DNA of 64,000 nucleotides from Candidatus Saccharicenans sp. (GCA_035416665.1 DAOLNQ010000007.1:17063-81062); one strand, 5' to 3'; positions 6,609-38,680 are shown, counted from the stretch's first letter. Translations and numbers: made by a program. The notes: a model not told the origin generated them from the sequence alone.

Positions 6609-6823
6609 AACTATTATCCTCCTCTAATGTTTATATCGCTCTATTTCTTTGCTTTATTTCCGCTGTTGCTTCAAGATTTCCTATTAATTATATCATTAAT
6701 GTATTCTTTTATAACGCAACCGTTATGGTTGGTAACCTTCTTATTTTCTTTATTTTCTGTTTTACTTTTTTCCCTTCTTCTGGCATGATAGAAAACTCAT
6801 TACAGGGAAAGGAGAAGACCAGC

Positions 6824-7807
6824 ATGATAAAGAGAAATTTTCGGTGTTTTGGCCTCCGGTTGTTTCTGGTGAGTCTATTGAGCTGGCCTGTCCTTGCTCT
6901 GGCTCAGGAGAGGGCCGGGAGCGGCGGGGGACAGGGCCGTCAGGCGGCGCCAACGTTTCTTCAGTTTTTAATGAGACCTAAGTTCCTGACCATGCTCATC
7001 ATTGCCGCCCTGGTTCTAATTTTGCTCCTCTCCAGAAAAATGAATGACCGGCTGAAAGTGCTGATTTTGCTGGTTTCAACTTTCCTCTATGGGGTTTCAG
7101 CCAATTTAGGGATTAAGTTGTTTTCCGGTTTTTCCATGCATCCCTCTCCGGTCTGCACCGTAACCAAGTCAATCCTTTATGGCTTTGGCCGGCCGATGAT
7201 GGTCTTTCTGGCTGTGATTCTATTTCTGACCTTAATCGGGCCAAAATTATTTTGCGGCTGGGTCTGCCCGGTCGGGGCGATTCAGGAGCTGATCTCCATG
7301 CTGGCCGATAAATTGAAAATAAAAAGACACAAGCTCAATTTCCGGCTGACTCAGACGGTCAGGATCCTGATTTTTCTGGCCTTTATTTTTCTGAGCTGGA
7401 CGGCCGTTATCCACACCGTTTCTAACGGCCGGGTGGTGCCGCTGTCGCTTTATGATTATATCAATGCCTTTCATGGCTATGAATGGAGCTGGGCAGCTGC
7501 TTTGATTGACAATCTCATCAACTTTTTGCCGCTTATTTTAACTATTATCTTTGCTTTTTTTACCTATCGGCCTTTCTGTTATTTAATCTGTCCGGTTGGC
7601 CTGATGACCAACGTCGTTGAACAGATCGCTTTTTTCCGGGTGACTAAAAAGAAAGATGACTGCACCGACTGTCAGGCCTGTGTGATTAAAGCTCCCTGCC
7701 CGGCGGTAGCCGAGATTGTTAAGGACTCAGTTCTGAGACCTGATTGCTTTTCCTGCACCAGATGCACCGGCAGTTGCAGCCGGGGGTTACTGCGCTTCGG
7801 ACGCTAA
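6824..7807 (+). CDS. NapH/MauN-type integral membrane protein with 4Fe-4S ferredoxin motifs and a Cys-rich C-terminus.
   Basis: CGWVCPVGAIQE and CYLICPVGLM motifs plus a CxxCxxC tail. Start placed at the ATG at 6824 with GGAGAAG upstream. The ORF track starts at 6725. Confidence 0.7.
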   Translation: MIKRNFRCFGLRLFLVSLLSWPVLALAQERAGSGGGQGRQAAPTFLQFLMRPKFLTMLIIAALVLILLLSRKMNDRLKVLILLVSTFLYGVSANLGIKLFSGFSMHPSPVCTVTKSILYGFGRPMMVFLAVILFLTLIGPKLFCGWVCPVGAIQELISMLADKLKIKRHKLNFRLTQTVRILIFLAFIFLSWTAVIHTVSNGRVVPLSLYDYINAFHGYEWSWAAALIDNLINFLPLILTIIFAFFTYRPFCYLICPVGLMTNVVEQIAFFRVTKKKDDCTDCQACVIKAPCPAVAEIVKDSVLRPDCFSCTRCTGSCSRGLLRFGR

Positions 7808-34103: not shown

Positions 34104-34319
34104 ATGGAAAAAGAGTTCACTTCAGTTTCGATTCCAACATCCCTTTATAAAAAAATTGAAGAAAAGATCAAGGGCACCGACATCAGCTCAGTTTCCAGTT
34201 ATGTAGCCAAAGTCCTTAGAGAAAGTCTGGCCAGGGAACAAGACAATAAAGAAGTTTTTACACCGGAAGAAGAAGAAAAGATCAAGGAAAGGCTAAAGGC
34301 TCTCGGCTATATTGACTGA
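34104..34319 (+). CDS. Small (71 aa) protein, possibly a ribbon-helix-helix (CopG/Arc-like) regulator.
   Basis: Strong RBS. N-terminal beta-strand-like FTSVSIPTSLYKKIEEKIK followed by helices. No direct motif proof. Confidence 0.45.
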   Translation: MEKEFTSVSIPTSLYKKIEEKIKGTDISSVSSYVAKVLRESLAREQDNKEVFTPEEEEKIKERLKALGYID

Positions 34320-34363
34320 ACAACCAGGACCAGATTATCAGCACCACTTAGAAGGAGAAAACA

Positions 34364-35512
34364 ATGATCTCACCACACGGGGGAAAACTCATAAATCGCT
34401 TCCTGGAGGAAGATGAAAGACAAAAGGTACTGGAGGAGATAGACCGTCTGCCCTCTCTGACTCTTGACCCGGATCTAATTTCTGACGTGGAGAATATCGC
34501 CACGGGAGTTTATTCACCTCTGGTCGGCTTTATGAACAGGTCTGATCTGGACAGTGTTCTGCAGAACATGAGGCTGGCCGATGATCTGCCCTGGACTATG
34601 CCTATTGTCCTGGATGTTGACCGCCAAACGGCAGACCGGCTGAAAATCGGAGAAAGAGTAACCCTGCGCTCAGAAGATGGTCAGCCGGTAGCAGTGCTCA
34701 ATATTGAGGACAAATACACTTATGATAAAGAGCAATTTGCTTTGAGAGTTTATGGCACGACTGACCTCAAACATCCGGGAGTAGCCAGGCTGTCTGCTAT
34801 GAAGGAGTTTTTGCTGGGCGGCAAACTGGAAGTGGTCAATCTGATTCCTACTCCTTTCGACCGCTATCGTCTGACCCCCAGAGAAACCAGGCTCCTGTTT
34901 CGGGAGAAAGGCTGGAAAACAGTCGTCGGTTTTCAAACCCGAAATACACCCCACCTGGGCCATGAATATGTTCAAAAAACCGCTTTGACCTTTACTGATG
35001 GCCTGTTTATTAACCCGGTGATCGGTCGCAAAAAAAAGGGTGATTTTAAAGATGAGGTCATTCTGGCTGCCTACGAAGAGCTTATCAAGCACTACTACCT
35101 TAAAGACCGGGCGGTCATGGCCATCTTAAAGATGGAAATGCGTTATGCCGGGCCGCGTGAGGCCATTCATCACGCCATTATAAGAAAGAATTTTGGCTGT
35201 ACACATATCATCATCGGACGGGATCATGCCGGGGTTGGAAATTATTATCCTCCTTATGCGGCTCAGGAAATTTTTGAGCAGTTTCCGGATCTGGGCATTG
35301 TTCCTCTTTTCTTTACCTCTTTCTTTTTCTGCCGTCAATGTCAGTCAGTAGAAAATGAAAAAACCTGTCCTCACGACCGGTCCATGCATGTGGAATTTTC
35401 CGGAACCAGAATCAGAGAAATGCTTGTTAAAGGAGAAGTGCCTCCGCCAGAGTTAATGCGACCGGAAGTGGCCAGGGTGATCTTGTCCTTTGAGCAGCCT
35501 TTTAATGATTGA
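34364..35512 (+). CDS. sat: Sulfate adenylyltransferase (ATP sulfurylase, homo-oligomeric type).
   Basis: QTRNTPHLGHEY and GRDHAG motifs. GAAGGAGAA RBS. Confidence 0.9.
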   Translation: MISPHGGKLINRFLEEDERQKVLEEIDRLPSLTLDPDLISDVENIATGVYSPLVGFMNRSDLDSVLQNMRLADDLPWTMPIVLDVDRQTADRLKIGERVTLRSEDGQPVAVLNIEDKYTYDKEQFALRVYGTTDLKHPGVARLSAMKEFLLGGKLEVVNLIPTPFDRYRLTPRETRLLFREKGWKTVVGFQTRNTPHLGHEYVQKTALTFTDGLFINPVIGRKKKGDFKDEVILAAYEELIKHYYLKDRAVMAILKMEMRYAGPREAIHHAIIRKNFGCTHIIIGRDHAGVGNYYPPYAAQEIFEQFPDLGIVPLFFTSFFFCRQCQSVENEKTCPHDRSMHVEFSGTRIREMLVKGEVPPPELMRPEVARVILSFEQPFND

Positions 35513-35552
35513 TTGAGGATTAAAGCCGGTTAGATAATGAAAGGTAGCTGAA

Positions 35553-36926
35553 TTGAAAGACAAAAGACTTCTGATTATTGGTCTCGATTGTGCTCCGCCT
35601 TCTTTGATCTTTGACCGGGCAGAAAAGTTGCCGCATCTCCGACAACTTATGGCCAATGGGATTTATGGACCGCTGCGCAGTTGTGACCCGCCAATTACGA
35701 TCCCGGCCTGGATGGTCATGGCCACCGGTCGCGATCCAGGCGAACTCGGTCTGTATGGCTTCCGGCATAGAAAGGGTTATGAGTATAACAGGATGTGGAT
35801 TGCCAACTCAACGGCGGTCAAAGAGAAGACTGTCTGGGATTATCTGGGGGAGCAGGGGAAAAAGAGTATCCTGGTTGGTGTTCCACCCAGTTATCCGCCC
35901 AGGCCGGTCAAGGGCGAGCTCATATCCTGCTTTATAACGCCTTCCAATGAAAAGTCATATACCTATCCGGAAGAGCTCAGAAAAGAAATAGAAGAGCATT
36001 TTGGACCTTTCCTTTTTGATGTCGTTTTCAGGACAGAAGATCGCTCTGAAGTCCTGAAAGAAATTTACCGCATGACTGAAAATCATTTTCAGGTGGTTGA
36101 TTATCTTCTTGACCGCCAGGATTGGTCCCTGTTCTGGCTGGTGGAGATCGGGGTGGATCGTATGCACCATGCTTTCTGGAAGTTTATGGATAAAAACCAT
36201 CACCTCTACCAGCCCGGTAATCCTTTTGAATCAGCTATCTATGATTATTATCAATTTCTTGACGAAAAAATCGGACAGCTCTTGAAGAAAATAGACGAGA
36301 GCACTGCCGTCCTGGTTGTTTCGGATCATGGGGCGAAGGGAATGAAAGGTGCTTTCTGTGTCAATGACTGGCTGATCGAGCAGGGGGATCTGGTAATTTC
36401 AGAGCCGCCAGCCCGTGGTCAGAGCATCGATCATCTGAAAATTGACTGGAAGCGGACAAGGGCCTGGGGCTGGGGTGGTTACTATGCCCGCATTTTCTTA
36501 AATGTCGAAGGGCGGGAACCTCAGGGCATCATCCAGCCCGATGATTATGAAACGGCGCGCGATGAACTGGCTGCACGTCTGAAAGCTATCCGTGGGCCAA
36601 AAGGAGAAGAATGGCAGACGGTTATCATCAAGCCTCAGGAGCATTATCCCGTGGTTAACGGCGATTATCCTGATCTGATGGTTTATTTTGATGATTTATA
36701 CTGGCGTTCGGCCGGCACCCTTGGCTATGGCAGTCTTTATCTTGAGGAAAATGATACCGGGCCGGATGACGCTGTTCATGATTACAATGGAATCTATATT
36801 CTTTATGATCCAGATTCTCCAGGTAGGAAGGTAAAGCCGGCCAATATTATTGATATAGCTCCGACTGTTCTTCAGCTCCTGGAGGGACCGGTTGTATCTG
36901 ATTTAAAAGGGAAAGTTATAAGCTGA
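35553..36926 (+). CDS. Alkaline-phosphatase-superfamily enzyme of the type-I phosphodiesterase / nucleotide pyrophosphatase (NPP) family.
   Basis: LLIIGLDCAPPS and TIPAWMVMATGRDPGELGLYGF (Thr nucleophile motif) match the Phosphodiest family. Later DHGAKG metal-site motif. No signal peptide. Confidence 0.75.
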   Translation: MKDKRLLIIGLDCAPPSLIFDRAEKLPHLRQLMANGIYGPLRSCDPPITIPAWMVMATGRDPGELGLYGFRHRKGYEYNRMWIANSTAVKEKTVWDYLGEQGKKSILVGVPPSYPPRPVKGELISCFITPSNEKSYTYPEELRKEIEEHFGPFLFDVVFRTEDRSEVLKEIYRMTENHFQVVDYLLDRQDWSLFWLVEIGVDRMHHAFWKFMDKNHHLYQPGNPFESAIYDYYQFLDEKIGQLLKKIDESTAVLVVSDHGAKGMKGAFCVNDWLIEQGDLVISEPPARGQSIDHLKIDWKRTRAWGWGGYYARIFLNVEGREPQGIIQPDDYETARDELAARLKAIRGPKGEEWQTVIIKPQEHYPVVNGDYPDLMVYFDDLYWRSAGTLGYGSLYLEENDTGPDDAVHDYNGIYILYDPDSPGRKVKPANIIDIAPTVLQLLEGPVVSDLKGKVIS

Positions 36927-37170
36927 TTTTAATTTCCTGAACAAGAGCCGGCGATAAGTTTAATCGGCCGGGCTTCAGTGATGGAGAACATCTTACAAAT
37001 GGTTTTAGATGGAACAGACAGAGAAGAAAGATATAGGCTGGAAGTCTGATCAGGGAAACTCAATTCCAAAAATTAAGGAAACGGAGCAGAATACAATGTT
37101 CTGGACGCCAGGAAATGAGAAAGAAAAATCAAAATTGATTTAGGATAAAAGACAAAAAAGGAGCAGTTTT

Positions 37171-37716
37171 ATGTGTCAGGAACAAAAAGGATTTACCTTG
37201 TGGTTTACCGGCCTGCCCTGTTCGGGCAAGACGGCCATTGCTGACCGTTTAGCCCAGGTTCTTAAAGAGAAAGGTTTAAAAGTTGAGCGTCTGGACGGGG
37301 ATGTGGTTCGCCAGAGCCTCTGCCGCGATCTTGGCTTTTCCCGCCACGATCGAGACGAAAATATCCGGCGGGTGACTTTTGTGGCCAAGCTGCTGACCAG
37401 AAATGGTGTGGCTGTTCTGACCTCTTTTATTTCACCTTACCGGGAGATAAGAGATGAAGCCAGGCGCGAAATAGGTGACTTCATTGAGGTCTATGTGAAA
37501 TGTCCGCTGGAAGTCTGCCTGGCCAGAGATGTCAAGGGGATGTATCAGAAAGCCATAAGGGGAGAAATTAAAGAGTTTACCGGTATCTCTGATCCCTATG
37601 AAGAGCCACTTCAGCCGGAACTGGTTTTAGAAACAGACCGGGAGACTATTGAAGAAAGTGTCAGTAAGGTCCTCAATTATCTCCGCCAGACAGGCTACCT
37701 CGAAGACCATATCTAA
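37171..37716 (+). CDS. cysC: Adenylyl-sulfate (APS) kinase.
   Basis: GFTLWFTGLPCSGKTAIA P-loop. APS kinase length and motifs. Confidence 0.9.
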   Translation: MCQEQKGFTLWFTGLPCSGKTAIADRLAQVLKEKGLKVERLDGDVVRQSLCRDLGFSRHDRDENIRRVTFVAKLLTRNGVAVLTSFISPYREIRDEARREIGDFIEVYVKCPLEVCLARDVKGMYQKAIRGEIKEFTGISDPYEEPLQPELVLETDRETIEESVSKVLNYLRQTGYLEDHI

Positions 37717-37729
37717 CCCTGGAAATAAA

Positions 37730-38680
37730 ACAATGGCCGAGTATAAAAAATATCTGGTGACAGGTGGTGCCGGCTTTATTGGTTCACATCTGGTGGAAGA
37801 ACTGGTCAGACGTCAGTATCAGGTCAGAGTCCTTGATGATTTTTCAAGCGGTAAAGAAGAAAATCTGGCTCCTTTCAGCTCAAAAATAGAAATAATCAGG
37901 GGTGATATCAGGGACAGGGAAACCTGCCGGCGAGCAGCCGCCGGTATGGAGGTAATTCTTCATGAAGCGGCGCTGGCCTCGGTACCCAGATCGATATCCG
38001 AACCTTTTCTGGCCCATGAAATAAATTTAACCGGAACGCTAAATTTGCTCCAGGCGGCGGTCGAAGCCGGGACCAAGAGCTTTGTTTTCGCTTCTTCCTC
38101 GGCGGTCTATGGCGATGATCAGGTCTTTCCCAAGCAAGAAGGAAGCGAAGGTAAGCCCCTCTCTCCCTATGCCGCCCAGAAGCTGGCCTCTGAAAAATAC
38201 TGTCAGGTTATGAGTCTGCTAGACGATTTCAATGCTGTTTCGCTGCGGTATTTTAACGTCTTTGGCCCTCGTCAGGACCCGAATTCTCAATATGCGGCTG
38301 TCATTCCCATTTTTATCAAGCGCCTCCTGGCCGGACAATCACCGGTCATATATGGTGACGGTAAGCAGACCCGCGACTTTATCTACGTTGGCAATGTGGT
38401 CAAAGCTAACCTGCTGGCGGCTCAGGCCGAGTGTTTCCGGGGAGAGGTTTTTAATATCGGTTCTGCGGAGAGAATTACCATCAACGATCTGGCCAGAGAA
38501 ATTGCCAGCTACCTGGGACAATCGGTCAAACCAGAATATGCTCCACCGCGTCCGGGTGATATCAAGAATTCCTATGCCAGCCTGGAAAAAGCCAGAAAGC
38601 TTCTTGGCTTTGAGCCGGAGATTGATTTCAGACAGGGCTTGAAGCTGACCGTTGACTGGTATAAAAAGCGAAGTGGGTAA
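37730..38680 (+). CDS. NAD-dependent nucleotide-sugar epimerase/dehydratase (UDP-hexose 4-epimerase-like, extended SDR).
   Basis: YLVTGGAGFIGSHL Rossmann motif. YxxxK (YAAQK). The internal ATG at 37730 is preferred because the track start overlaps cysC. Confidence 0.85.
   Translation, partial: TMAEYKKYLVTGGAGFIGSHLVEELVRRQYQVRVLDDFSSGKEENLAPFSSKIEIIRGDIRDRETCRRAAAGMEVILHEAALASVPRSISEPFLAHEINLTGTLNLLQAAVEAGTKSFVFASSSAVYGDDQVFPKQEGSEGKPLSPYAAQKLASEKYCQVMSLLDDFNAVSLRYFNVFGPRQDPNSQYAAVIPIFIKRLLAGQSPVIYGDGKQTRDFIYVGNVVKANLLAAQAECFRGEVFNIGSAERITINDLAREIASYLGQSVKPEYAPPRPGDIKNSYASLEKARKLLGFEPEIDFRQGLKLTVDWYKKRSG

What the first reader, a model, noticed from the sequence alone, without database searches (positions are those of the whole stretch)
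34104..38680. NPP/alkaline-phosphatase-superfamily enzyme embedded between sat and cysC, followed by a 4-epimerase: a sulfation module rather than assimilation
sat, then a 457-aa type-I phosphodiesterase/nucleotide-pyrophosphatase-family protein (Thr-nucleophile motif TIPAWMVMATG, no signal peptide, so cytoplasmic), then cysC, then an NAD-dependent sugar-nucleotide epimerase. A small RHH-like protein leads the cluster. No cysH, cysNDI or sulfite-reductase genes are nearby, so the APS/PAPS made here more plausibly feeds a sulfotransfer or sulfo-nucleotide pathway. The epimerase hints at sulfated sugars. An NPP-fold enzyme acts on nucleotide phosphodiester or phosphosulfate bonds, and some show sulfatase promiscuity. 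Inside a sat-cysC pair it may hydrolyse or remodel APS/PAPS/PAP, or act as an unconventional sulfo-group-handling enzyme. I do not know of a characterised enzyme in this position.
Basis: partly seen in the sequence, partly recalled or inferred. Interest (0 to 1): 0.6.

Follow-up and report, generated by a model that had tools for sequence, protein, structure and literature searches.

The report
Unknown enzyme fixed inside sulfate-activation operon
A cytoplasmic alkaline-phosphatase-superfamily enzyme of unknown function sits between the two genes that make the activated-sulfate donor PAPS; this layout recurs, also as fused proteins, in many bacteria and archaea, which makes it a strong candidate for the missing non-canonical sulfotransferase (or a new helper enzyme) of microbial sugar sulfation.

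Summary
Window 34104-38680 encodes, on the + strand, a small RHH-like protein, sat, a 457-aa PF01663 (NPP-type) protein, cysC and a WbpP/WbgU-type 4-epimerase.

The NPP protein has no signal peptide and keeps the Thr nucleophile and the two-metal ligand set. It has no close solved or characterised relative.

The order RHH-sat-NPP-cysC is conserved in about 80 genomes, mostly Aminicenantes plus about 25 archaeal MAGs (Bathyarchaeia, Asgard, Thermoplasmatota, Hadarchaeota). The NPP domain is also found fused to Sat, to CysC, to a pyruvate-kinase barrel, and in one 1680-aa protein to Sat, PK, CysC and PHP together.

Some archaeal operons also carry a homologue of the characterised PAP phosphatase MtPAPP, so the NPP is probably not the PAP phosphatase. 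The neighbours are glycan-synthesis genes, not sulfite-reduction genes.

Best reading (about 0.4): a PAPS/APS-dependent sulfuryl transferase that works through a sulfo-Thr intermediate. Main rival (about 0.25): a pyrophosphatase that pulls ATP sulfurylase. Neither can be settled by computation.

I found no description of this enzyme in the literature I could search.

A conserved C-terminal "RLKxLGY(I/L)" tail is shared by the RHH leader, by mini-ORFs, by APS kinases and by neighbouring enzymes. It remains unexplained.

The parts
34104..34319 (+). Small RHH-like leader protein (71 aa) with an acidic linker and a conserved C-terminal tail ...EEEEKIKERLKALGYID
   Evidence: ORF. Fold evidence is weak: RHH_1 and NikR hits and an AF2 single-sequence model with pLDDT 61 showing helices 12-22, 27-44 and 54-67. 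Homologues lie directly upstream of the operon or of the NPP gene in nearly all related loci. 84 of 87 homologues end in LGY plus 0-3 residues.
34364..35512 (+). sat, homo-oligomeric-type ATP sulfurylase (382 aa)
   Evidence: PF14306 plus PF01747 (E=7e-92). NF003166 scores 539.7 bits against a cutoff of 387.
35553..36926 (+). Cytoplasmic NPP-type alkaline-phosphatase-superfamily enzyme (457 aa; 'core NPP', annotated in JGI/IMG records as predicted AlkP-superfamily phosphohydrolase/phosphomutase). Candidate residues: nucleophile T49; metal ligands D12, D202, H206, D258, H259, H409; conserved cationic set R73, R160, R203, R313, R321, R385
   Evidence: PF01663 E=3e-47. No NCBIfam or PDB sequence match. 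AF2 pLDDT 88, pTM 0.91. Best folds are ENPP1/3 and Xanthomonas NPP, TM about 0.55-0.66 at 13-16% identity. A profile alignment to Xac NPP places D12, T49 and D258-H259 on its ligands. Conservation.
36927..37170 (.). Unusually long (244-nt) A-rich spacer between the NPP gene and cysC
   Evidence: Relatives have spacers of about 25-120 nt, for example 67 nt in L001. No Rfam match. Folding z-score -2.1. Function unknown; it may be nothing.
37171..37716 (+). cysC, APS kinase (181 aa), ending ...VLNYLRQTGYLEDHI
   Evidence: PF01583 E=2e-63. NF002059 scores 263 bits against a cutoff of 244. TIGR00455 scores 245 bits against a cutoff of 139. PDB 5CB6 E=7e-58.
37733..38680 (+). Extended-SDR nucleotide-sugar C4-epimerase, WbpP/WbgU/TviC-like (315 aa from the ATG at 37733)
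   Evidence: PF01370 E=4e-64. Closest solved structures are WbpP 1SB8 (E=8e-76) and WbgU (E=6e-74). Below the equivalog cutoffs for TviC and GalE. Directly downstream of cysC or the NPP gene in 49 of 50 evaluable bacterial loci.

Best explanation
The segment is a horizontally mobile sulfate-activation and sulfation cassette, made of RHH-like regulator, Sat, core NPP and CysC. In Aminicenantes it is joined to UDP-sugar-modifying enzymes. It supplies sulfate for glycan or sugar sulfation, not for cysteine synthesis.

Proposed pathway:
1. Sat makes APS.
2. CysC makes PAPS.
3. The NPP-fold enzyme is the PAPS- (or APS-) consuming step. Its metal-activated Thr49 attacks the sulfur of the phosphosulfate anhydride. 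PAP (or AMP) leaves on the second metal. The resulting sulfo-Thr enzyme passes the sulfuryl group to a hydroxyl of a sugar acceptor, most plausibly a UDP-(N-acetyl)hexuronate or hexosamine made by the adjacent epimerase and dehydrogenase, or a lipid-linked sugar.
4. PAP is then recycled by an MtPAPP-type DHH phosphatase or a PHP phosphatase, which is encoded in the same operon or fusion in some lineages.

Shown: gene identities, conservation of the arrangement, the fusions, the intact NPP-type catalytic set, cytoplasmic location, and the glycan context.

Inferred: that the enzyme transfers sulfuryl groups, which donor it uses, and what the acceptor is.
For: 1. **Conserved order.** Among the 80 best GTDB loci, Sat lies upstream in 37/48 bacterial and 22/23 archaeal evaluable loci. 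CysC lies downstream in 44/50 and 16/21. NPP, Sat, CysC and RHH all show similar cross-domain identity of roughly 40-68%, so the cassette moves as a unit.
2. **Rosetta-stone fusions.** Sat-NPP (P0246, P0395, P0397); CysC-NPP (P0261); NPP-CysC (L060, Desulfotomaculum copahuensis, 777 aa); NPP-PK-Sat (P0322, P0391); a 1680-aa NPP-PK-Sat-CysC-PHP protein (P0394); NPP-GT2 (P0252); NTP_transferase-NPP (P0324).
3. **The PAP-phosphatase slot is filled by other proteins.** A DHH gene lies between Sat and NPP in 7 archaeal loci and matches the characterised MtPAPP (PDB 8A8K, E=5e-40). A PHP domain is present in P0394. My memory, not tested here, is that PHP-family pAp phosphatases are known.
4. **The sulfate reducer case.** In D. 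copahuensis the cluster has RHH plus an NPP-CysC fusion and no Sat, which ties the NPP to the PAPS side rather than to Sat.
5. **Persistence without Sat and CysC.** Six Aminicenantes loci at the same syntenic site have lost Sat and CysC but keep RHH-NPP-Epi-Ugd.
6. **Glycan context.** Fusion loci lie in glycan clusters with flippases, glycosyltransferases, NeuB and Ugd+Epi. Archaeal loci carry TauE transporters and sugar-1-P nucleotidyltransferases.
7. **Catalytic set.** The NPP-type nucleophile and metal set is conserved family-wide, together with six Arg residues suited to a polyanionic nucleotide.
8. **Precedent and open question.** AP-superfamily sulfatase-like proteins Agl30 and Agl31 behave genetically as sulfotransferases in Halobacterium (PMC11980604). 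Jespersen et al. 2023 explicitly postulate an unidentified 'non-canonical sulfo-transferase' in archaea that have ATPS, APSK and PAPP (PMC10322725).
Against: - There is no biochemical evidence. No sulfotransferase of the PF01663 branch is known, and the donor used by Agl30/31 is unknown.
- The protein is as conserved across domains (52-60% identity) as Sat and CysC. That fits a universal small substrate (PPi, PAPS) better than a variable glycan acceptor.
- Many clusters also contain divergent PF01663 paralogues or sulfatase-like genes. These look like better acceptor-specific transferases and leave the core NPP a more general role.
- Three fusion partners release PPi (Sat, NTP_transferase, PF01507/ATP-PPase family), and the pyruvate-kinase fusion resembles the classical in-vitro PAPS-synthesis mix of ATPS, APSK, PPase and PK. 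This points to a pyrophosphatase.
- MtPAPP also occurs in Methanococcales cassettes with no PAPS consumer encoded beside it, so the 'missing slot' argument is not tight.
- A related NTP_transferase-NPP fusion lies in a phosphonate (PEP-mutase) cluster with no sat or cysC.
Confidence: 0.4

Rival explanations
1. The NPP-fold enzyme is a dedicated inorganic pyrophosphatase, or another PPi-consuming enzyme, of the PAPS-supply cassette. It removes the PPi released by ATP sulfurylase and by neighbouring sugar-1-P nucleotidyltransferases. This pulls the very unfavourable APS-forming reaction forward. The actual sulfotransferases are the divergent PF01663 paralogues or sulfatase-like proteins, or are encoded elsewhere.
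For: - Fusions to three PPi-releasing enzyme types: Sat, NTP_transferase and PF01507.
- The NPP-PK-Sat and NPP-PK-Sat-CysC-PHP fusions resemble the classical PAPS-synthesis enzyme set (own knowledge).
- No canonical family I PPase lies in any of the 88 loci examined.
- Cross-domain conservation equals that of Sat and CysC.
- The conserved Arg cluster and AP-like Arg next to the metal ligand (D202-R203) suit a small polyanion.
- Separate acceptor-specific candidates lie in the same clusters.
- Natural Sat-CysC-PPase fusions are known in some eukaryotes (own knowledge, not tested).
Against: - No PPase of this fold is known as a physiological cytoplasmic enzyme.
- A 457-aa enzyme with a large, highly conserved cap domain is more than PPi hydrolysis would need.
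- It is fused to CysC, without Sat, in a sulfate reducer's polysaccharide cluster.
- It is kept with Epi and Ugd where Sat and CysC have been lost.
- It is kept next to a GTP-driven CysN(C)-type sulfurylase in L019.
- An NPP-GT2 fusion exists.
Confidence: 0.25
2. The enzyme is a nucleotide hydrolase acting on PAP, PAPS or APS. It could be a CysQ-like PAP 3'-phosphatase in lineages that lack the DHH enzyme, or a phosphosulfate hydrolase that buffers toxic or inhibitory APS, PAPS or PAP.
For: - Fold and catalytic set of nucleotide pyrophosphatases.
- Mammalian ENPPs are reported to hydrolyse PAPS and APS (own knowledge).
- No DHH or CysQ homologue lies in the bacterial loci or in the window.
- The Arg-rich, AP-like active site would suit a phosphomonoester.
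Against: - It co-occurs in one operon or polypeptide with MtPAPP-type DHH or a PHP phosphatase, which would make it redundant.
- Hydrolysis of APS or PAPS next to the genes that make them would be futile, yet the arrangement is among the most conserved features of the cassette.
- The GT2 and NTP_transferase fusions and the retention with Epi and Ugd are left unexplained.
Confidence: 0.1
3. The family is a general cytoplasmic group-transferase or phosphohydrolase of glycan tailoring. It could act on nucleotide-sugars or transfer phospho-, phosphono- or other anionic groups. Its chemistry is not specific to sulfate. Sat and CysC are linked to it only because both serve the same glycan.
For: - A related NTP_transferase-NPP fusion lies in a PEP-mutase/LicD phosphonate cluster without sat or cysC.
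- Six RHH-NPP-Epi-Ugd loci lack sat and cysC.
- Haloarchaeal 25-31% paralogues lie in varied contexts.
- Membrane-bound AP-superfamily transferases such as EptA and LtaS decorate glycans through a covalent Thr intermediate (own knowledge).
Against: The core subfamily (at least about 45-50% identity, full Arg set) is almost always adjacent or fused to Sat or CysC specifically. Such tight and repeated physical fusion to sulfate-activating enzymes is hard to explain without a sulfate-related substrate.
Confidence: 0.12

Closest known systems
Nucleotide pyrophosphatase/phosphodiesterases (Xanthomonas NPP, ENPP1/3; Pfam PF01663)
   Same: Same fold (Foldseek E about 1e-17, TM up to 0.66 on the target). 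Same Pfam family. The Thr nucleophile sits at the N-terminus of a T-x-P...TG helix. The Asp/His two-metal ligands align.
   Different: Only 13-16% identity. Cytoplasmic, with no signal peptide. It has an extra cap of roughly 130 residues (about 270-400). The aromatic residue after the nucleophile that stacks the base in NPPs is Ile/Val here. Extra conserved Arg residues (R73, R160, R203, R313, R321, R385) make the site look more monoester- or sulfuryl-like. Its operon and fusion context with sat and cysC is unknown for NPPs.
Agl30/Agl31 (VNG1056C/VNG1057C), alkaline-phosphatase-superfamily sulfotransferases of Halobacterium salinarum N-glycosylation (PMC11980604)
   Same: AP-superfamily proteins, not classical sulfotransferase folds. 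They are encoded in glycan clusters and are genetically required and sufficient for sugar sulfation. One is soluble and cytoplasmic. Sulfatase-like genes of this kind lie beside the cassette in several related loci (L060, L062, L088, L090).
   Different: They belong to the sulfatase-like (PF00884) branch, not PF01663. They are not reported next to sat and cysC. Their donor and mechanism are unknown. No sequence similarity to the window protein was detected here.
Sulfate-activation modules: bifunctional PAPS synthases (Sat-CysC), and the M. thermolithotrophicus ATPS/APSK/PAPP set (PMC10322725)
   Same: Sat and CysC are orthodox. Archaeal versions of this cassette include a clear MtPAPP homologue (E=5e-40). 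The module supplies PAPS.
   Different: Those systems have no AP-superfamily component. In M. thermolithotrophicus, PAPS goes to a PAPS reductase for assimilation. Here no reductase is present and an NPP-fold enzyme is an integral, often fused, part.
Classical PAPS-dependent sulfotransferases (Sulfotransfer_1/2/3; NodH, Stf, RaxST)
   Same: The proposed overall reaction (PAPS plus acceptor-OH gives PAP plus sulfated acceptor) and genetic linkage to sat/cysC-type genes, as with nodPQ-nodH and raxPQ-raxST (own knowledge).
   Different: Unrelated fold. Classical enzymes transfer directly, without metals or a covalent intermediate. The protein here would need a metal-dependent ping-pong mechanism.

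Membership tests
PF01663 type I phosphodiesterase / nucleotide pyrophosphatase (NPP branch of the alkaline-phosphatase superfamily) | Pfam HMM match above the gathering score over the whole catalytic domain | tested here: met
   162.2 bits against a cutoff of 23; residues 6-404 cover profile positions 1-341 of 342.
PF01663 type I phosphodiesterase / nucleotide pyrophosphatase (NPP branch of the alkaline-phosphatase superfamily) | Thr (or Ser) nucleophile plus six Asp/His ligands for two metal ions | tested here: met
   D12, T49 and D258-H259 align to the Xac NPP ligands. D202, H206 and H409 are assigned by position and by at least 90% conservation in 105 family representatives. T49 is Thr in 85 and Ser in 8 of 105.
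PF01663 type I phosphodiesterase / nucleotide pyrophosphatase (NPP branch of the alkaline-phosphatase superfamily) | NPP-type nucleotide slot (aromatic residue directly after the nucleophile; Asn contacting the phosphoryl oxygen) | tested here: not met
   Position 50 is Ile/Val. The position aligned to Xac Asn is F70, although this lies in a low-confidence region. The residue roles in Xac NPP come from my own knowledge.
PF01663 type I phosphodiesterase / nucleotide pyrophosphatase (NPP branch of the alkaline-phosphatase superfamily) | Hydrolysis of nucleotide phosphodiester or pyrophosphate bonds | not testable with these tools
   Needs an enzyme assay.
Sulfatase (PF00884) / formylglycine sulfatases | PF00884 match and the C/S-x-P-x-R formylglycine motif | tested here: not met
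   No PF00884 hit at E<0.01. The only match is a 16-bit fragment to choline sulfatase. The motif is T-I-P-A-W.
AP-superfamily sulfotransferases (Agl30/Agl31 type) | AP-superfamily core, location in a glycan cluster, and a genetic requirement for sugar sulfation | tested here: inconclusive
   The AP core is present. The glycan context is present in related loci, but in the window only through the epimerase. The protein belongs to a different branch (PF01663, not sulfatase-like). The genetic requirement cannot be tested here.
Classical PAPS sulfotransferases (Sulfotransfer_1/2/3) | Pfam match with the 5'-PSB and 3'-PB motifs | tested here: not met
   No such Pfam or NCBIfam hit.
PAP phosphatases (CysQ/FIG family; DHH MtPAPP/NrnA) | Homology to a known PAP phosphatase family, and being the only candidate for that step | tested here: not met
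   No homology. An MtPAPP homologue (E=5e-40) sits next to the NPP gene in the same operon in 7 archaeal loci. A PHP domain is present in fusion P0394.
Inorganic pyrophosphatases (families I, II, III, M-PPase) | Homology to a known PPase family | tested here: not met
   No Pfam hit. A functional analogue is not excluded. No family I PPase lies in any related locus.
   The only match is a 15-bit C-terminal profile hit to iPGM (E=0.06). The adjacency to sat and cysC is conserved.
ATP sulfurylase (Sat) and APS kinase (CysC) | Curated NCBIfam and Pfam models above their cutoffs | tested here: met
   Sat: NF003166 539.7 bits against 387. CysC: NF002059 263.3 bits against 244 and TIGR00455 245.1 bits against 138.7.
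UDP-hexose / UDP-HexNAc(A) C4-epimerases (WbpP/WbgU/TviC group of extended SDRs) | Extended-SDR fold with closest similarity to characterised C4-epimerases | tested here: inconclusive
   Closest solved structures are WbpP (E=8e-76) and WbgU (E=6e-74). However, the protein is below the TviC (247 against 760) and GalE (188 against 262) equivalog cutoffs. The substrate is not defined.

The most novel reading that the evidence does not exclude
A protein-borne sulfo-relay. The core NPP would use PAPS to load sulfate onto the invariant Tyr of the C-terminal '...EEExVKERLKxLGY(I/L)' tail. This tail is carried by the RHH leader protein and by tail-only mini-ORFs. The resulting aryl-sulfate (Tyr-O-sulfate) would then be the donor for the arylsulfatase-like and divergent NPP-like enzymes of the same clusters, which sulfate specific glycan positions. 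Alternatively, the sulfation state of the tail could report PAPS availability to the RHH regulator. This would be a new sulfotransferase class together with a carrier-protein logic for sulfation.
Probability: 0.05. Interest if true: 0.95.

Novelty: new variant of a known kind. Interest (0 to 1): 0.68.

Why it matters
Many anaerobic archaea and bacteria carry sat and cysC but cannot assimilate sulfate and have no recognisable sulfotransferase. What their PAPS is for, and which enzyme uses it, is an open question raised explicitly for methanogens (PMC10322725).

This family is large. About 3,000 cluster representatives match at E<1e-30. It is physically welded to sulfate activation in both domains and has no assigned function.

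If it is a sulfotransferase, it defines a new metal-dependent, covalent-intermediate class. It would also open microbial glycan sulfation, in Aminicenantes, Bathyarchaeia and Asgard archaea, to prediction from genomes.

If it is a pyrophosphatase, it is a new PPase family and a natural equivalent of engineered PAPS-synthesis cascades, which would be useful for enzymatic PAPS production.

Either answer can be obtained with a few in-vitro assays on one soluble protein.

Tried and rejected
- **Agl7 lead.** I tried to check whether Haloferax Agl7 (HVO_2046, needed for sulfation of DolP-hexose) belongs to PF01663. The papers held do not state its family and the supplement is not held. A homologue search seeded with a haloarchaeal paralogue returned no protein named Agl7. 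The lead stays unverified and is not used as evidence.
- **Haloarchaeal paralogues.** Plasmid-borne paralogues are 25-31% identical. One lies in a sulfatase/GT4/PAPS-reductase-family cluster. The conserved 448-aa haloarchaeal orthogroup stands alone, so it is not informative for the core subfamily.
- **PAP-phosphatase role.** Considered first and downgraded after the MtPAPP match and the PHP-containing fusion.
- **RNA element between NPP and cysC.** Rfam found nothing and folding gave z=-2.1. The promoter and terminator scan was at background.
- **Literature.** Searches on COG3379, on AP superfamily with sulfotransferase and PAPS, and on type I phosphodiesterase with archaea and sat found no description of this enzyme.
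- **HD-NPP and PF01507-NPP fusions.** Their contexts were on short contigs or uninformative.
- **HbYX reading of the tail.** A proteasome-docking reading of the LGY tail was rejected, because the Tyr is often at position -3 and is preceded by Gly.

Full report
**1. What is in the sequence**

Window 34104-38680 carries five co-directional ORFs separated by short gaps.
- A 71-aa protein (34104-34319).
- sat (34364-35512).
- A 457-aa protein (35553-36926, TTG start).
- cysC (37171-37716).
- An extended-SDR epimerase. Its mechanical ORF starts at 37649 inside cysC, but its real start is almost certainly the ATG at 37733 (MAEYKKYLVTGGAGFIG).

Sat and CysC pass curated NCBIfam cutoffs (540 against 387 bits; 263 against 244 bits). 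The 457-aa protein matches PF01663 end to end (E=3e-47) and does not match PF00884. No NCBIfam model claims it.

The epimerase is closest to WbpP and WbgU (E about 1e-75). It is below the equivalog cutoffs for TviC and GalE.

The small leader protein is only weakly RHH-like. It gives sub-threshold RHH_1 and NikR hits, and a low-confidence model with an extended N-terminal segment and three helices.

Homologue names place the organism in Aminicenantes (Acidobacteriota). The flanks are housekeeping genes: phoH, HD-7TM, ybeY and a CBS protein upstream on the other strand, and hypE/D/C, uppS, cdsA and dxr downstream. tblastn and inspection found no CysN, PAPS-reductase-family, PAP-phosphatase, TauE, sulfatase-like, NTP-transferase, Ugd or second NPP gene in the 64 kb.

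**2. The NPP-fold protein**

It starts directly with the first beta-strand, which carries the first metal ligand (LIIGLD12C). It therefore has no signal peptide and is cytoplasmic.

The AlphaFold2 model is confident (pLDDT 88, pTM 0.91). The best solved matches are ENPP1, ENPP3 and Xanthomonas NPP, at only 13-16% identity and TM 0.55-0.66. phmmer finds no PDB sequence. A family profile just reaches Xac NPP (E=0.003) and aligns D12, T49 (motif PPIT49IPAW) and SD258H259G onto its ligands and nucleophile.

In 105 representatives spanning 33-55% identity, the following are conserved:
- D12, T/S49, D202, H206, D258, H259 and H409;
- W53 (100%), N271 and N317;
- a set of arginines: R73, R160, R203, R313, R321 and R385.

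The aromatic residue that follows the nucleophile and stacks the base in NPPs is Ile/Val here. An Arg directly follows the ligand D202. The site therefore looks more suited to a PO3- or SO3-type transferred group than to a classical diester. That is an inference from general AP-superfamily knowledge.

**3. Conservation of the arrangement**

A scan of one genome per GTDB species found 564 relatives, and the best 80 loci were kept. tblastn with the five window proteins gave the following.

| | Bacterial loci (n=53, mostly labelled Aminicenantes/Acidobacteriota) | Archaeal loci (n=25) |
|---|---|---|
| RHH upstream | 47/48 | in almost all (by motif) |
| Sat upstream | 37/48 | 22/23 |
| CysC downstream | 44/50 | 16/21 |
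| Epimerase within 1.5 kb | 49/50 | not adjacent |
| UDP-sugar dehydrogenase present | 34/53 | - |

The denominators are the loci evaluable for each feature. The archaeal loci come from Bathyarchaeia, Baldr-, Jord-, Njord- and Odinarchaeota, Thermoplasmatota, Hadarchaeota, Nitrososphaerota and Methanomethylicota.

All four core proteins show similar cross-domain identity: NPP 52-60%, Sat 52-64%, CysC 49-60%, RHH about 40-68%. The cassette has therefore moved as a unit.

**4. Fusions**

An exhaustive search of 1.8 billion cluster representatives found 13,850 relatives (3,015 at E<1e-30). Several were over-long proteins. Pfam scans and a follow-up search show:
- Sat-NPP (three architectures);
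- CysC-NPP;
- NPP-PK(barrel)-Sat;
- NPP-PK;
- PK-Sat;
- a 1680-aa protein combining NPP, PK, Sat, CysC and a PHP phosphoesterase domain;
- NTP_transferase-NPP;
- NPP-GT2;
- HD-NPP;
- PF01507-NPP.

In the cultured sulfate reducer Desulfotomaculum copahuensis, a single 777-aa ORF joins NPP and CysC through a low-complexity linker. An RHH gene precedes it. It lies in a polysaccharide cluster with flippases, a methyltransferase, a cytoplasmic sulfatase-like protein, RmlB and RmlC. Most fusion NPP domains keep the catalytic set and most of the Arg set.

**5. What the neighbours say**

In seven archaeal loci a DHH gene lies between sat and the NPP gene. It matches the biochemically characterised, PAP-specific phosphatase MtPAPP (8A8K) at E=5e-40. 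The PAP-recycling step is therefore already covered there, and by the PHP domain in the mega-fusion. This argues against the NPP being the PAP phosphatase.

Other recurrent neighbours are TauE/SafE anion transporters, sugar-1-P nucleotidyltransferases, epimerases, GT2/GT4, Wzx-type flippases and, in one locus, Pst genes.

The fusion loci L086, L088 and L089 are glycan clusters with NeuB, Ugd+Epi, glycosyltransferases, radical-SAM enzymes and methyltransferases. Each also has a second, divergent PF01663 paralogue and/or a sulfatase-like gene. These paralogues keep the metal and nucleophile set but not the Arg set, and they are only 24-31% identical to each other and to the core.

Within Aminicenantes:
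- six loci at the same syntenic site (next to phoH) have lost sat and cysC but keep RHH-NPP-Epi-Ugd;
- three keep RHH-NPP-CysC-Epi;
- one shows a decayed sat remnant;
- one has a CysN(C)-type GTP-driven sulfurylase instead of Sat.

No reduction genes appear in any locus. The module-level reading, sulfation of sugars rather than assimilation, is well supported.

**6. Mechanism: best reading and rivals**

The steps of a PAPS cycle are sulfate uptake, Sat, PPi removal, CysC, PAPS consumption and PAP hydrolysis. In these cassettes every step except PPi removal and PAPS consumption has an orthodox candidate.

I favour PAPS (or APS) consumption, that is, a sulfuryl transferase working through a sulfo-Thr49 intermediate on the two-metal centre (confidence about 0.4). 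The reasons are:
- The NPP stays linked to the sugar-nucleotide genes when sat and cysC are lost.
- It is fused to CysC without Sat in a sulfate reducer.
- It is fused to GT2 and NTP-transferase domains.
- AP-superfamily proteins (sulfatase-like Agl30 and Agl31) were recently shown genetically to be sulfotransferases of archaeal N-glycans (PMC11980604).
- The M. thermolithotrophicus study explicitly postulates an unidentified non-canonical sulfotransferase in archaea with ATPS, APSK and PAPP (PMC10322725).

The main rival (about 0.25) is a dedicated pyrophosphatase. In its favour:
- Three fusion partners release PPi.
- The PK fusions resemble the classical ATPS+APSK+PPase+PK cocktail.
- Its conservation equals that of Sat and CysC.
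- The divergent paralogues and sulfatase-like proteins look like better acceptor-specific transferases.
- No family I PPase was found in any of the 88 loci examined.

A PAP/PAPS/APS hydrolase (about 0.1) and a glycan-tailoring enzyme not specific to sulfate (about 0.12) remain possible. The second is suggested by an NTP_transferase-NPP fusion in a PEP-mutase phosphonate cluster without sat or cysC. None of these can be separated further with the tools available. Model coordinates could not be inspected and two structure libraries were offline.

**7. An unexplained feature: the C-terminal tail**

The leader protein's C-terminal tail, [FY][ST]xE[ED]EEx[VI]KxRL[KR]xLGY[IL][DE], is present in 84 of 87 homologues.

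A regex for the last part of the motif at ORF C-termini gives 97 hits in the collected loci and none in three shuffles. Besides the RHH proteins, the hits are:
- tail-only mini-ORFs next to Sat (L089), next to a sulfatase-like gene (L090) and after an NPP paralogue (L086);
- the C-terminus of the NPP-PK fusion (L089);
- a Halopiger 'sulfatase' and a PAPS-reductase-family protein (L082);
- the C-termini of many CysC proteins.

Solved APS kinases also end this way (...KLGYL in 8A8H...ELGYL in 7YQ0). The RHH tail therefore resembles the native APS-kinase C-terminus.

In L089 the RHH gene lies between sat and NPP-PK, so it follows the NPP gene rather than sat.

A shared docking motif for a multi-enzyme sulfation complex is the conservative reading. 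A Tyr-sulfate carrier or sensor is the adventurous one.

**8. Comparison with known systems and novelty**

By fold and catalytic residues the protein belongs to the PF01663 branch of the AP superfamily. It does not meet the nucleotide-slot features of characterised NPPs. It is not a sulfatase, a classical sulfotransferase, a known PAP phosphatase, a known PPase or an iPGM.

The literature searches I could run found no description of an enzyme in this operonic position.

I rate it a new variant of a known kind: an AP-superfamily enzyme recruited into sulfate activation and sulfation. Interest is 0.68. It bears on a stated open question about PAPS use in non-assimilating archaea. It concerns a very large, cross-domain family. 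It can be tested directly with one soluble protein.

Noticed in passing
window 34260-34319 (tail of the RHH protein); also L086:16530-16652, L089:7316-7459, L090:3955-4149, L089:8992-11361 (C-terminus), L082:1-117 and 6706-7698 (-), window 37660-37716 (cysC C-terminus): A C-terminal motif ...E(E/D)EEx(V/I)KxRL(K/R)xLGY(I/L)(D/E)-COOH is shared by several protein types: the RHH leader (84/87), tail-only mini-ORFs, an NPP-PK fusion, a Halopiger sulfatase, a PAPS-reductase-family protein, and many APS kinases, including the solved 8A8H and 7YQ0. There are 97 hits in the loci against 0 in shuffles. It may be a docking motif for a sulfation complex. Its function is unknown.
   Followed up: partly
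L060:5992-8325 (Desulfotomaculum copahuensis); P0246, P0261, P0322, P0391, P0394, P0368, P0252, P0324, P0399, P0404: The NPP domain occurs naturally fused to CysC, Sat, a pyruvate-kinase barrel, PHP, GT2, NTP_transferase, HD and PF01507 domains. One 1680-aa protein combines NPP, PK, Sat, CysC and PHP.
   Followed up: yes
L088:10001-13462 and L089:7531-11361: Clusters with Sat plus NPP-PK (pyruvate-kinase barrel only, no PK C-terminal domain) show no CysC within 9-10 kb. The PK-like domain might regenerate ATP or replace CysC. This was not resolved.
   Followed up: no
L012, L014, L016, L017, L026, L028 (RHH-NPP-Epi-Ugd); L034, L042, L050 (RHH-NPP-CysC-Epi); L013:5549-5974; L019:3129-5633: At the same syntenic site next to phoH, some Aminicenantes have lost sat and/or cysC but kept RHH-NPP-Epi. 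L013 retains a decayed sat remnant. L019 has a CysN(C)-type GTPase sulfurylase upstream instead of Sat.
   Followed up: partly
L048:7841-9421, L054:1776-, L063:2564-, L052:1467-, L057:1814-, L086:15048-16529, L088:8033-9577(-), L089:11347-12753(-); sulfatase-like L060:2706-4130, L062:3287-4417, L088:5812-7296, L090:4146-5444: Divergent PF01663 paralogues (24-31% identity) recur beside the cassette. They keep the catalytic set but lack the core Arg set. Cytoplasmic sulfatase-like proteins without a canonical CxPxR motif (checked in L060) also recur there. Both are candidate acceptor-specific transferases.
   Followed up: partly
window 36927-37170: The spacer between the NPP gene and cysC is 244 nt and A-rich, with an imperfect GC hairpin just after the NPP stop codon. 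Relatives have spacers of about 25-120 nt. There is no Rfam hit and the folding z-score is -2.1.
   Followed up: partly
L090:9001-11175 and flanks: An NTP_transferase-NPP fusion lies in a phosphonate-type cluster (PEP mutase-NTP_transferase, LicD, CTP_transf-PPDK_N, aminotransferases) with a sulfatase-like gene preceded by a tail-only mini-ORF. No sat or cysC is present. This hints that the wider family may serve other anionic glycan decorations.
   Followed up: no
L081:8017-10311, L085:6710-9344, L083:8001-9350, L082:8971-10317: Haloarchaea have a well-conserved 448-aa PF01663 orthogroup, about 27% identical to the window protein. It usually stands alone. It is close to a family I pyrophosphatase gene in Natrinema and Natronomonas. 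On the Halopiger plasmid it lies in a sulfatase/GT4/PAPS-reductase-family/PiT cluster.
   Followed up: partly
L065:398-1048, L069:4072-4812, L072:1492-2139: In some Bathyarchaeia the RHH-tail protein is the C-terminal part of a 215-246-aa ORF. The N-terminal part of that ORF contains another RHH-like segment (TTIQISExLRRRIKVLAS) and an unassigned domain.
   Followed up: no
window 37649-37733: The mechanical ORF of the epimerase starts at a TTG inside cysC and adds 28 residues. Homologues and the Rossmann motif indicate that the true start is the ATG at 37733, 16 nt after the cysC stop codon.
   Followed up: yes
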